From contig CP084167.1 in the NCBI GenBank assembly GCA_021513715.1, positions 1,504,001 through 1,568,000 of the forward strand: DNA of 64,000 bases, given 5' to 3'. This document shows, in pieces, positions 16,242 to 19,010 of the stretch; within the stretch, counting starts at the first letter, position 1, and each line of letters opens with the position of its first letter. The stretch is from Candidatus Heimdallarchaeum endolithica. GTDB taxonomy: Archaea > Asgardarchaeota > Heimdallarchaeia > Heimdallarchaeales > Heimdallarchaeaceae. The notes below the pieces were generated by a model that was given only the letters and a program-made list of their open reading frames with translations, made no database searches and had not been told where the DNA came from. The translations under genes and the position numbers were made by a program.

Positions 16242-17300
16242 GTGAATAAAATGGAGGATATATCTGGTGTTAATTGGGATAATTTTGTAGGTTTTTGTAT
16301 TTTCACATTTGAAGAGGAATTAATTTTTGATAGAGTAATAAATACAAAAACATCATTTTCTACTGTTTATCATATCGTTGATACTTCAAATAAAATGAGA
16401 GAAGAACTTAAGAAATCAAAAAAAATGTCAGTTATAAATGATATTTTCAGAGTAGATTATGAAATTATCTTTAATGTTATTTTTGCATTTATGTTTAAAC
16501 CTGAAACATCAGATGAATTTTCGAATTTATCAATAAAAACCATTAAACAGATAATAATCGAACATTTAAAGGACTACGGAGCAATAGACAAAATGGAACT
16601 AGCATCCCAATGCGCTTTAATAAAACGATTGGGAAATCTTATTGCAGAACGAGCTTGTAATCAGATAAAAAATGAATATTTCTCAAAGAGAGCTAAGCTT
16701 CATGAAAAAACTGAAACTCAAGCAACTACCACACAACAACCTGAACCAGAACCAACAGTTAAAGAGACAAAAGAAGTAAAGAAAGAAGATCATCCTAAGG
16801 AGCCACAAGTTCAAACATTAGGTAAAGTTGAAAACCTTTTAGAATTTATAGGAGTTAAGGGAGATGAGACTTCTGAAGGATTTTTAAGTGAAGGAACGAA
16901 GTCAGAGTTAACAGAAAAGTTGTTAGAAGAAACGAAAAGAGATTCAATAAAAAGAGTTCTATCTTCTGTAATAAAAGGACTAAATGAAAAAACGGGTGTA
17001 TGCTTTGTTTACACTGAACAACTTGGGCAACTAGACATTTTATCATATGGAATGTCAGAGAAACATGCTAACTTTGTTCTAGGAATTCTGAGTAAATATC
17101 CAGAGATAATTAAACAAATCCTATCATCAAACAACGAAGAAAAAACCCTAGACGCTGGAGATGGTGTTGTCATTTTAGAAGAAACAGAAAAAGGTATTTT
17201 AGTAAGTATTACTAAATACAAAAAAGAGATACCTACAATTGTCCAACGATTAAAAATGGTTAAAATGCTAATTGAGCAATTCCTAAAAACATCATTTTAA
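16242..17300 (+). CDS. Hypothetical protein with putative N-terminal longin-like and C-terminal roadblock/profilin-like domain (paralog 1)
   Basis: C-terminal 'KTLDAGDGVVILEE...ILVSIT...IVQRLK' shared with the next two ORFs; fold assignment is inference. Confidence 0.6.
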   Translation: MNKMEDISGVNWDNFVGFCIFTFEEELIFDRVINTKTSFSTVYHIVDTSNKMREELKKSKKMSVINDIFRVDYEIIFNVIFAFMFKPETSDEFSNLSIKTIKQIIIEHLKDYGAIDKMELASQCALIKRLGNLIAERACNQIKNEYFSKRAKLHEKTETQATTTQQPEPEPTVKETKEVKKEDHPKEPQVQTLGKVENLLEFIGVKGDETSEGFLSEGTKSELTEKLLEETKRDSIKRVLSSVIKGLNEKTGVCFVYTEQLGQLDILSYGMSEKHANFVLGILSKYPEIIKQILSSNNEEKTLDAGDGVVILEETEKGILVSITKYKKEIPTIVQRLKMVKMLIEQFLKTSF

Positions 17301-17325
17301 CATCGAAAATGAAAAAGAAAAGTTG

Positions 17326-17913
17326 CTAATTGTTTTCTAATAGAATTGAATTGTTTAACACTACTTGTTGAACATGTTTTAATCGACGGGCTAGTTCATC
17401 TACTGAAGATTTATCTTGAACAATACCAACAAGATAATTGTCTTTTTCACAGTTTTCAAGAACAACATATCCAATTCCAGTATCTAGTACTTTTACTTCT
17501 TCAGTGGAACCTAATAAATCGTTTATTACAGGAGGATATTTTCTAAAAATATTAAGTATCTTCATTACAACTTCTTTATTTAATGGCCCTCTAACAATTG
17601 CTGTTTTTTCTTTACTCTCTATATGTGGAACAAGTGCAGCGGCAGAAAGTGACTTAAGATCATTAGCTATACTGTCTAGCAAGGCATCAATTGTAACTTT
17701 AATTGCTTTTCTTACTTCTTCAGGAGAAGAAGTTTGAGATAAGAATTTTTTCAAATATTCTCCTGATTCAATTTTCTTTTTAGAAACCTTGATAGTATTA
17801 TATGCTATTTCTTCTAACTCTACAAAACTTGATTTTTCTGCAGCTTTTCTTTTTCTAGTGGATATCTTTCCAGCTTGTGATGATTGTTTTTTCGATGGAG
17901 ACATGCATATCAA
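17326..17913 (-). CDS. Hypothetical protein, roadblock/profilin-like domain (paralog 2)
   Basis: 'KVLDTGIGYVVLEN...YLVGIV...LARRLK' aligns with its neighbours. Confidence 0.6.
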   Translation of the reverse strand: MICMSPSKKQSSQAGKISTRKRKAAEKSSFVELEEIAYNTIKVSKKKIESGEYLKKFLSQTSSPEEVRKAIKVTIDALLDSIANDLKSLSAAALVPHIESKEKTAIVRGPLNKEVVMKILNIFRKYPPVINDLLGSTEEVKVLDTGIGYVVLENCEKDNYLVGIVQDKSSVDELARRLKHVQQVVLNNSILLENN

Positions 17914-17990
17914 AGAAATAATAACGTCTAACTAAAAAAATCTTTTCCTTTATTTAGTAGGTAAATTTATTAGCACTGATTACTTAATGT

Positions 17991-19010
17991 ATGAATAGGT
18001 TTGGGGTTATGAATAGTTTAGGCTTTCAAGATATCATAAAACCATTAGTTGCAGTATTTACTTATAATATTGAAATTGGAAAAAGTGAAATAAAAGTAGA
18101 AAATGTAAGGACAAATAGAGAATTAGAAGAAATTGAAAGAAATTTTAACAGATTATCTTATGATTTTTTAGAATGGGTAAAAAGATATAATGAAATTACT
18201 ATCTTTAAGGGATCTTTTAGAGCAACATATATTAAATTTTATAATATGCTACTTCTCTTTGTATCAAGGTTAGTGAACTCAGGATTTGAAATAAGGCCAG
18301 TTATTAAAAAATTCTTGAATGAATTTGTAAATAGGTTGGTAGACGACTATATTTCAAAAAATCTCTCAAAATCAAAAATCAGATCTTTCTTAGAGATAGA
18401 AAAATTAGATAAAGAGAACCTAAAGTCTGAAATAGTAAAAACATTTACTAGGATGAAGATAGATCCTTCTCCTTTACTAGAAAAGTTAAGTAAAGAAAAG
18501 AGAGAAGAAGGTATTCAAGAGATTTATATTCAAGATCAGAAAAAAAGAAGAGAGGATATTCTTTCAGAGTATCAAAAAAGTGAACAATTTGAGCTGGTAC
18601 CAAGTGTAAAAAATATACATATGACAGCAGAGATAATTGAATCAGCAAATAAAAAAGCCATTACTTCTTTATTATTTACAGTTATTAAAGGATGTAAATC
18701 TCCATCTGCAGCTGCTTATATTTATCCAATGAAGGGAGGAGCTATTGGAGAACTCTATGCTGGTGATTTAGAAGAACATAAAATCATATATGTTCTAGAA
18801 GTTATTTCAGAACACCAAAAAGCGATAAATGAGATGCTTCATTCGAAAGAAGATCTAAAAATGCTAGATGCAGGAATTATACAAATAATTTTAGAAGATC
18901 TAACAGACGGTAAAATTATAATTGGAATAACAACAAATAAAGACGACGTTTACAATGTAGGGTATAAAATCAAAATTGCTAGATTCATAATAAAACAATT
19001 CGGATTCTAA
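17991..19010 (+). CDS. Hypothetical protein with putative longin-like plus roadblock/profilin-like domain (paralog 3)
   Basis: 'KMLDAGIIQIILED...IIIGIT...VGYKIK' aligns with its neighbours. Confidence 0.6.
   Translation: MNRFGVMNSLGFQDIIKPLVAVFTYNIEIGKSEIKVENVRTNRELEEIERNFNRLSYDFLEWVKRYNEITIFKGSFRATYIKFYNMLLLFVSRLVNSGFEIRPVIKKFLNEFVNRLVDDYISKNLSKSKIRSFLEIEKLDKENLKSEIVKTFTRMKIDPSPLLEKLSKEKREEGIQEIYIQDQKKRREDILSEYQKSEQFELVPSVKNIHMTAEIIESANKKAITSLLFTVIKGCKSPSAAAYIYPMKGGAIGELYAGDLEEHKIIYVLEVISEHQKAINEMLHSKEDLKMLDAGIIQIILEDLTDGKIIIGITTNKDDVYNVGYKIKIARFIIKQFGF

What the first reader, a model, noticed from the sequence alone, without database searches (positions are those of the whole stretch)
16242..19010. 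Cluster of three divergent paralogs sharing a roadblock/profilin-like C-terminal domain
Seen: all three ORFs end in an approximately 120-aa module with the consensus helix-'(I/V)L.(I/V)....P..I..(L/M)L.S.E..K.LD(A/T)G...(V/I)(I/V)LE.......L(V/I)(G/S)I.......(L/I)K'. They are arranged +/-/+, and the two long ones add an N-terminal longin-like alpha/beta domain and a charged linker. Known: roadblock/longin domains dimerise and regulate small GTPases (Ragulator, MglB, TRAPP). Inference: a heteromeric GTPase-regulating scaffold, possibly partnering the GTPase at 24097..25341. The mutual homology is directly visible; the fold is inferred.
Basis: partly seen in the sequence, partly recalled or inferred. 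Interest (0 to 1): 0.7.

Follow-up and report, generated by a model that had tools for sequence, protein, structure and literature searches.

The report
Heimdall archaeal longin-roadblock paralogue module
Three neighbouring genes of a Heimdall-group Asgard archaeon encode an unannotated family with the roadblock fold (two also carry a longin domain), folds that eukaryotes use as docking platforms for small GTPases; they stay together with an acidic, probably disordered fourth gene across the family, but the GTPase gene nearby is not a conserved neighbour.

Summary
Observation confirmed. The three ORFs (+/-/+) share a ~125-aa C-terminal domain (z 16-20 over shuffles). Models and fold searches make it roadblock-type, not profilin. 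A and C carry an N-terminal longin-type fold, but those two domains show no detectable sequence similarity to each other.

The genome is Heimdallarchaeaceae. All 30 relatives in the family have the domain, usually as this trio plus an unlinked fourth paralogue (D). Two sister families mostly have one D-like copy; 358 other Asgard genomes gave no match. All three genes are under strong purifying selection (B dN/dS 0.009). The acidic ORF 15056-16150 lies directly upstream of A in 26/26 genomes and moves with the module.

The proposed partner, a Rag-like GTPase (24097-25341), is adjacent only in this genus; with 22 GTPase genes, such proximity arises about 9% of the time by chance.

Best reading (inferred): a family-specific roadblock/longin platform for small-GTPase signalling. 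Longin followed by roadblock matches the first two domains of Mon1/Ccz1-type GEFs, but the third domain is missing. This scan reported the same trio on other genomes before. New variant of a known kind.

The parts
16251..17300 (+). Paralogue A, 349 aa from ATG 16251 (the open frame starts at GTG 16242): longin domain, disordered charged linker with a short conserved helix (VE.LLEFIG), roadblock domain
   Evidence: dN/dS 0.055 vs the same-genus genome
16281..16682 (+). Longin-fold domain of A (residues 14-147 counted from 16242)
   Evidence: [quoted passage not shown]
16893..17279 (+). Roadblock-type domain of A (residues 218-346)
   Evidence: Z 10.5 to CvnB5 roadblock (rmsd 2.6, 99 aligned), 10.3 to Mon1 residues 366-523, 9.9 to MglB; top Foldseek rows are Ragulator, Asgard roadblock and MglB chains, all E above 0.001
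17326..17904 (-). Paralogue B, 192 aa from ATG 17904: basic N-terminal stretch, conserved helical segment, roadblock domain (about 17350-17724); no longin domain; the most conserved of the three
   Evidence: Atlas model matches Robl_LC7 clusters, TM 0.76 by target; dN/dS 0.009; 59-71% identity across genera
17932..17939 (-). Conserved TATA-like box (TTTTTTAG on the minus strand), 27 nt before B's ATG; promoter role inferred
   Evidence: Aligned block in 14 intergenic regions from 4 genera
17966..17973 (+). Conserved TATA-like box (TTTATTAG), 35 nt before C's ATG 18009; B and C are divergent, each with its own box; promoter role inferred
   Evidence: Invariant TTATTA core in 14 regions with similar spacing to the start
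18009..19010 (+). Paralogue C, 333 aa from ATG 18009 (the open frame starts at 17991): longin-like domain (about 18051-18452), helical linker, roadblock domain (about 18615-19001)
   Evidence: C-terminal domain Z 11.3 to MglC (rmsd 2.8, 112 aligned); N-terminal domain Z 9.1 to LAMTOR3 and 8.7 to AP-3 sigma; full-length Foldseek best rows are Mon1-Ccz1 chains, E 3.5e-5 to 7.7e-5, rmsd 18-21; dN/dS 0.062
15056..16150 (+).
   Evidence: Single copy, found only in this family, directly upstream of A in all 26 genomes where found; kept in the rearranged genera (L032, L034); alignment; repeats; dN/dS 0.149; pI 4.6 for residues 1-295 and 10.2 for 296-364
14994..15001 (+). Conserved TATA-like box (TTTAATAA after an A-rich run) upstream of E; no conserved box was seen between E and A, which fits one E-A transcript (inferred)
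24097..25341 (-).
   Evidence: Pfam Gtr1_RagA E 6.5e-20; adjacent only in this genus

Best explanation
A, B and C are old, family-specific paralogues of a longin-linker-roadblock protein; B lacks the longin domain. Their products most likely pair through their roadblock domains (central helix alpha2 and edge strand beta3, as in MglB/MglC and LAMTOR2/3) into a soluble heteromeric platform. The longin domains of A and C, on flexible linkers, would add further docking surfaces, and the acidic protein E would act as a tether whose basic tail could reach an anionic membrane or another polyanion. The platform most likely positions or regulates one of the genome's many small GTPases, GEF- or adaptor-style rather than as a FLCN/NPRL2-type GAP. 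Shown here: paralogy, purifying selection, conserved gene order and distribution. Predicted: the two folds. Inferred by analogy only: the heteromer, E's role, any membrane contact and the GTPase function.
For: Roadblock and longin folds from two independent AlphaFold2 models and the Atlas model of B. Roadblock/longin dimers are established GTPase platforms (PMC10933270). In A and B the alpha2, beta3 and beta4 elements keep 0.76-0.95 identity across genera, against 0.10 in the linkers. Each paralogue is its own orthologous group (A+B+C split from D and sister-family copies 100/100; B 95/99; C 99/93), and B is under stronger constraint than Kae1 (dN/dS 0.009 vs 0.043). E-A-(X)-B-C moved as a block in genus g2 while its other neighbours changed, and B-E-A stayed together in g3. 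The genome holds 22 Gtr1_RagA-matching GTPase loci. There is a precedent for two roadblock paralogues plus a disordered acidic partner: MglB-MglC-RomR (PMC10329633).
Against: No GTPase gene is a conserved neighbour. Roadblock domains are common in prokaryotes, so the fold alone does not name a partner (PMC12962969). IclR/HrcA-type GAF domains score nearly as well (Z 8.4-9.9). The genes form three separate inferred transcription units (E-A, B, C). C was not found in the one g3 genome (91% complete, 710 contigs). Background synteny in the family is high: the kinase gene stays adjacent in 4 of 5 genera.
Confidence: 0.45

Rival explanations
1. The module is a roadblock/longin adaptor or sensor for something other than a small GTPase, for example the neighbouring kinase-like protein (13666-14703) or JAMM protease, or a small ligand held in a GAF-like pocket.
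For: The kinase-like gene is adjacent in 4 of 5 genera and the JAMM gene in 3 of 5, far more often than the GTPase (1 of 5). GAF-type effector domains score within about 1-2 Z units of the roadblock hits.
Against: Kinase and JAMM genes are left behind when the block moves in genus g2 (L032). The best Z and the best Foldseek rows are roadblocks and tri-longin GEF subunits, and the domain has roadblock size and topology.
Confidence: 0.25
2. The three proteins are independent homodimers with separate roles; they sit together only because they arose by local duplication in a slowly rearranging region.
For: Mixed orientation, separate inferred promoters, N-terminal domains of A and C unalignable, an unrelated membrane gene inserted between A and B in two genera, C not found in g3, and D is unlinked.
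Against: The block relocated intact in g2 together with E, which is not a paralogue; E, A, B and C share the same family-limited distribution.
Confidence: 0.15
3. One reading: the trio is a Ragulator-like scaffold for the Rag-like GTPase at 24097-25341.
For: The GTPase is a true Gtr1/RagA-type protein, is kept in 28 of 30 relatives in the family at 64-69% identity outside this genus, and is strongly constrained (dN/dS 0.021). In eukaryotes Rags bind roadblock scaffolds (PMC10933270).
Against: It is adjacent only in this genus; 37-42 kb away in three g5 genomes and on other contigs elsewhere. The chance of some small GTPase lying within 5 kb is about 0.09, within 40 kb about 0.43. Family-wide presence is shared with many unrelated genes.
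Confidence: 0.1
4. A and C are archaeal homologues of the first two domains (LD1 longin, LD2 roadblock) of tri-longin Rab GEF subunits and form a Mon1-Ccz1-like heterodimeric GEF through their longin domains.
For: Same domain order as LD1-LD2 (PMC8833172, PMC9012472). Mon1-Ccz1 chains are the best full-length Foldseek matches of C. Two Rab-like GTPases in the genome carry the Y-K switch-1 motif of tri-longin substrates (C1:173426 and C1:1859146; motif from PMC12383261).
Against: No LD3; 8-12% identity; rmsd 18-21 means the two domains are not matched in one arrangement, so the score is what any longin-then-roadblock chain would give. No Pfam Fuz/Intu longin match for A, B or C. The family was found in only one order, in archaea known for lineage-specific shuffling of these domains (bioRxiv 2020.10.19.343400).
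Confidence: 0.08
5. The shared domain is a profilin-like actin regulator.
For: Profilin shares the core fold; LokiProfilin1 appears at Z 7.6 for C.
Against: Profilins replace half of the central helix with a three-strand motif (PMC10933270); both models have an uninterrupted, kinked central helix, and roadblocks score 3 or more Z units higher.
Confidence: 0.02

Closest known systems
Roadblock/LC7 proteins with a C-terminal helix: Myxococcus MglB and MglC, Streptomyces CvnB5, human LAMTOR2/LAMTOR3, Asgard roadblocks (PDB 7F8M, 7YH1, 9JUE, 9JQ8; Tran et al. 2024, PMC10933270)
   Same: Same predicted topology and size of the shared domain (Z 8.3-11.3); several paralogues per genome.
   Different: Not detected by Pfam PF03259, which finds 8 other loci in this genome; central helix has bulky residues and a conserved Y/F-P kink; fused behind a longin domain in A, C and D; no GTPase gene in the block.
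Tri-longin-domain Rab GEF subunits: Mon1-Ccz1, HPS1-HPS4 (BLOC-3), Fuzzy-Inturned (CPLANE)
   Same: Longin domain followed by a roadblock-type domain, in paralogous proteins; best full-length structural matches.
   Different: No third (lamtor-type) domain, through which these complexes also dimerise; long acidic linker with no predicted contact between the domains (pTM 0.47-0.51); no significant sequence match; a third, longin-less paralogue.
Myxococcus MglB-MglC-RomR polarity complex (PMC10329633) and eukaryotic Ragulator (LAMTOR1-5)
   Same: Possible functional analogy: several roadblock paralogues plus one largely disordered partner.
   Different: No homology of E to RomR or LAMTOR1 was found (Pfam and NCBIfam blank). 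E has a basic tail where RomR's C-terminal helix is acidic, and no N-terminal Gly/Cys lipidation motif. These systems have no longin-roadblock fusions.
Asgard longin and roadblock expansions (130 asCOGs in Liu et al., bioRxiv 2020.10.19.343400; longin-GTPase, GTPase-roadblock, longin-GTPase-roadblock and longin-TRAPPC3 fusions in PMC10933270)
   Same: Lineage-specific, patchily distributed fusion of these two fold types in an Asgard genome.
   Different: A longin-roadblock fusion without a GTPase domain, in a conserved trio, was not described in the passages I read; Klinger et al. 2016 and the supplementary asCOG tables were not checked.

Membership tests
Roadblock/LC7 fold, MglB/LAMTOR2 type | [quoted passage not shown] | tested here: met
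   DSSP of models of A and C; Z 9.9-11.3, rmsd 2.6-3.1 to CvnB5, MglB, MglC; B by Atlas model
Roadblock/LC7 fold, MglB/LAMTOR2 type | Match to Pfam Robl_LC7 (PF03259) | tested here: not met
   No match for any of 33 members; the model finds 8 other loci in this genome but none of these. A distinct subfamily by sequence.
Roadblock/LC7 fold, MglB/LAMTOR2 type | Dimer through central helix alpha2 and strand beta3 | not testable with these tools
   Only indirect: these elements are among the most conserved in A and B, less so in C
Profilin | Half of the central helix replaced by a three-strand motif (PMC10933270) | tested here: not met
   Central helix continuous over residues 273-295 in A and 262-283 in C
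Longin fold | [quoted passage not shown] | tested here: met
   Z 9.0-9.7 to delta-COP, AP-3 mu, AP-2 mu, VAMP7
Longin fold | Same topology in the N-terminal domain of C | tested here: inconclusive
   Element order fits longin, but LAMTOR3 (Z 9.1) and AP-3 sigma (Z 8.7) tie; the domain was not folded alone
Tri-longin-domain Rab GEF subunits | LD1 longin followed by LD2 roadblock-type domain | tested here: met
   against the domain definitions in PMC8833172 and PMC9012472
Tri-longin-domain Rab GEF subunits | Third, lamtor-type domain LD3 | tested here: not met
   A, C, D and all relatives end at the roadblock domain
Tri-longin-domain Rab GEF subunits | alphaX-betaX linker motif that completes LD3 | tested here: inconclusive
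   A and C each have a short conserved linker motif, but there is no LD3 for it to complete and equivalence could not be judged
Tri-longin-domain Rab GEF subunits | Match to Pfam Fuz/Intu longin models | tested here: not met
   None for A, B, C, D; only sub-threshold Intu_longin_1 scores (E 0.0026 and 0.03) in two distant relatives, one of them on the roadblock domain
Tri-longin-domain Rab GEF subunits | GEF activity of an LD1-LD1 heterodimer on a GTPase with a Y-K/R switch-1 motif | not testable with these tools
   The GTPase at 24097-25341 lacks the motif (LTPTRG); two other GTPases in the genome have it
Longin GAP subunits (FLCN, NPRL2, SMCR8/C9orf72 and their Asgard relatives) | GP motif before strand beta2 of the longin domain (PMC12290439) | tested here: not met
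   0 of 24 A, 0 of 22 C, 0 of 10 D and 0 of 11 sister-family sequences have GP in the first 60 residues of the domain
Ragulator | Lipid-anchored LAMTOR1-type scaffold wrapping two roadblock heterodimers, bound to a Rag heterodimer | tested here: inconclusive
   Four roadblock paralogues and a disordered neighbour exist, but E has no N-terminal Gly/Cys motif, no family match, and no Rag gene is a conserved neighbour; assembly cannot be judged here

The most novel reading that the evidence does not exclude
A and C are a prokaryotic two-domain relative of the tri-longin Rab GEF subunits: they pair Mon1-Ccz1-style through their longin domains, B and the acidic protein E complete and tether the complex, and it acts as the exchange factor for one of the genome's Rab-like GTPases with a Y-K switch-1 motif. 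This would be an archaeal stage in the origin of the Mon1-Ccz1/BLOC-3/CPLANE family.
Probability: 0.08. Interest if true: 0.8.

Novelty: new variant of a known kind. Interest (0 to 1): 0.4.

Why it matters
Asgard genomes hold dozens of small GTPases, roadblocks and longins, but almost no regulator-GTPase pair is known, partly because they rarely share operons (PMC10933270). This module gives a defined, small, soluble and strongly conserved set of proteins (A, B, C, E, with D as control) that can be co-expressed and screened against about two dozen GTPases from a closed genome. If it assembles and acts on a GTPase, it is a multi-subunit heteromeric regulator built by paralogue expansion in an archaeon, the design that eukaryotes use in Ragulator, TRAPP and Mon1-Ccz1. 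A specialist would not be surprised by more roadblock/longin genes in an Asgard genome, and the narrow distribution points to a lineage-specific elaboration, not a eukaryotic ancestor.

Tried and rejected
Complex prediction: A 190-352 + C 178-339 + B 25-192, B scored as partner, returned 'no answer' (score 0.00, mark 0.32). The tool states that this is neither support nor evidence against, and that a three-chain job is unlike its calibration; the longin-longin pair and E were not tried (one job only).
Pfam, NCBIfam and PDB sequence searches name none of A, B, C; the only roadblock row was CvnB5 at E 0.1.
Viral contigs: no relative.
Two Lokiarchaeia-like weak hits to B (E 7e-4 to 8e-4) vanished with the family profile and were dropped.
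The first hhalign run had one sister-family sequence mixed into set D; it was redone and only those values are used.
The bacterial sigma-70 promoter scan was at chance level (21 vs 21.6) and is irrelevant for an archaeon.
Atlas feature search of A's N-terminal domain gave only leads below 0.9 (Asgard 'first longin domain of FUZ, MON1, HPS1' clusters, 0.83-0.84); Atlas shape search of full-length A was uninformative apart from a roadblock cluster.
The 2-TM zinc-ribbon gene between A and B in genera g2 and g5 is not a paralogue and was not found in this genome.
Literature searches for Asgard + tri-longin and Heimdallarchaeum + longin returned nothing; Klinger et al. 2016 is not held.
The tree is unrooted with long branches, so I make no claim about the order of duplications beyond the A/B/C versus D split.
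Full report
Observation. I call them A (16242-17300), B (17326-17913) and C (17991-19010). Their C-terminal ~125 residues are homologous: BLASTP E 2e-11 to 2e-14 at 24-29% identity, and local alignment scores 16-20 standard deviations above 1000 shuffles. Profile-profile E-values are 5e-12 to 2e-16. The N-terminal domains of A and C do not match each other by sequence or profile. Orthologue alignments put the likely starts at ATG 16251, 17904 and 18009. 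All three genes are under purifying selection against the same-genus genome: dN/dS 0.055, 0.009 and 0.062, compared with 0.043 for the housekeeping gene Kae1. None has a transmembrane segment.

Organism and distribution. Homologues of A carry Heimdallarchaeaceae or Heimdallarchaeota labels. The genome is one 3.33-Mb contig and its congener is 3.08 Mb; from memory these sizes fit Ca. Heimdallarchaeum aukensis and endolithica, which I did not verify. A profile of the shared domain finds it in 30 of 30 other genomes of the family, usually four times, in 1 of 1 and 10 of 12 genomes of two sister families, usually once, and in none of the remaining 358 genomes of the phylum. A search of 1.84 billion representatives returned only 31 proteins; those I retrieved have the same two-domain layout. 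The fourth copy, D, lies about 1 Mb away. D resembles the sister-family copies (profile E 2e-12) and often shares their radical-SAM neighbour. A, B and C form one side of a 100/100 split from D and those copies. The trio is therefore best read as a family-specific expansion.

Fold. [quoted passage not shown] These are the longin and roadblock topologies as defined in PMC9012472. The C-terminal domain matches CvnB5 (Z 10.5), MglC (11.3), Mon1 residues 366-523 (10.3), MglB (9.9) and Rag C-terminal domains. B matches Robl_LC7 clusters in the Atlas. A's N-terminal domain matches delta-COP, AP-3 mu and VAMP7 longins (Z 9.0-9.7); C's ties between LAMTOR3 and AP-3 sigma. Profilin is excluded because the central helix is continuous (PMC10933270). 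GAF-type effector domains follow closely (Z 8.4-9.9), so the fold class is firm but does not fix the function. Pfam and NCBIfam recognise none of the three, although PF03259 finds eight ordinary roadblock loci in the same genome.

Gene order. In the own genus, g2, g4 and g5 the order E-A-(X)-B-C is kept, where E is the acidic ORF 15056-16150 and X is a 2-TM zinc-ribbon gene present only in g2 and g5. In g2 the block sits among different neighbours. In g3, B-E-A remain together and C was not found. E is single-copy, limited to the family, and directly upstream of A in all 26 genomes where it was found. It has a conserved C-terminal helix and lysine-rich tail behind an acidic repeat spacer.

The GTPase. 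The ORF at 24097-25341 is a Gtr1/RagA-type protein, conserved through the family. It lies within 6 kb of the trio only in this genus. In three g5 genomes it is 37-42 kb away and elsewhere on other contigs. With 22 GTPase loci in the genome, some GTPase would fall within 5 kb about 9% of the time and within 40 kb about 43% of the time. Position therefore gives no real support for this partner, though it does not exclude it: Asgard GTPases and regulators rarely share operons (PMC10933270).

Mechanism. Roadblock domains normally dimerise through the central helix and edge strand, and roadblock/longin dimers dock small GTPases (PMC10933270). In A and B these elements keep 0.76-0.95 identity across genera; in C they are less conserved (0.40-0.75). 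I infer a heteromeric roadblock platform, with the longin domains of A and C as further docking sites on flexible linkers and E as a tether, loosely like MglB-MglC-RomR (PMC10329633) or Ragulator. The longin domains lack the GP motif of the FLCN/NPRL2/SMCR8 GAP class, so a GEF or adaptor role is more likely than that type of GAP. Paralogy, selection, synteny and distribution are shown; the folds are predicted; assembly, E's role and the GTPase link are inferred. I give the whole model 0.45. The main rivals are a non-GTPase adaptor or sensor, possibly tied to the neighbouring kinase-like gene (0.25), and independent homodimers kept by local synteny (0.15).

Comparison with known systems. Longin followed by roadblock is the LD1-LD2 order of tri-longin Rab GEF subunits (PMC8833172), and Mon1-Ccz1 chains are the best full-length Foldseek matches of C (E 3.5e-5 to 7.7e-5). 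The rmsd of 18-21 shows that the two domains match separately, as any chain with this order would. LD3 is absent, identity is 8-12%, and the family was found in one order only. It is not a member of that family; shared ancestry is possible but unlikely (0.08). Two Rab-like GTPases elsewhere in the genome carry the Y-K motif of tri-longin substrates and the neighbouring Rag-like protein does not (PMC12383261), which gives the novel case concrete test substrates.

Novelty and verdict. Large, patchy, shuffled sets of roadblock and longin proteins are a known feature of Asgard genomes. I found no description of this GTPase-free longin-roadblock family or its gene block in the papers I could search. 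The scan itself reported the same trio on other genomes, with the same reading, and also noted E as a possible tether; I had reached these readings before those look-ups (note), and they are not independent evidence. Verdict: real, conserved and unannotated; a new variant of a known kind; interest 0.4.

Noticed in passing
G000:C1:2504972-2505970 (L063:9973-10971), outside the window: Fourth paralogue D with the same two-domain layout, probably the orthologue of the copy in two sister families; in most relatives it sits beside a radical-SAM gene pair.
   Followed up: yes
window 15056-16150: Acidic protein with perfect in-frame tandem repeats (51 bp x 4.5, 27 bp x 2.3) and a lysine-rich tail; always directly upstream of paralogue A.
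   Followed up: yes
L035:8835-9497 and equivalents in genera g2 and g5: A ~215-aa gene with two hydrophobic segments and a C-terminal CxxC...CxxC zinc ribbon lies between A and B in two genera; no homologue was found in this genome and NCBIfam gives no match.
   Followed up: partly
window 11805-14703: Thioredoxin-like, tail-anchored JAMM protease (Pfam JAB E 3e-14) and kinase-like genes on the minus strand, divergent from E; kinase adjacent in 4 of 5 genera, JAMM in 3 of 5.
   Followed up: partly
window 24097-25341: Rag-like GTPase with an ~90-aa N-terminal extension and E in place of D in the G3 motif (HELGGQ); 64-69% identical across genera, dN/dS 0.021; a distant paralogue lies at G000:C1:1418635-1419504.
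   Followed up: partly
G000:C1:173426 (-) and 1859146 (+): Two Rab-like GTPases with a Y-K-x-T-V-G switch-1 motif, the motif required in substrates of tri-longin GEFs.
   Followed up: no
window 17326-17904, residues 14-24 of B from ATG 17904: Conserved basic stretch (I.[ST]RKRK) at B's N-terminus (pI 10.2 for the first 45 residues); a possible membrane or nucleic-acid contact.
   Followed up: no
L027:1495-1836 (G035:C191): In one g5 genome B appears split into two frames near residue 85; frameshift or assembly error not resolved.
   Followed up: no
window 19074-23102: AIR-synthase-like, Bud32, radical-SAM and Kae1 genes follow C in genera g1, g3 and g5; ordinary housekeeping neighbours that do not move with the module in g2 or g4.
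   Followed up: partly
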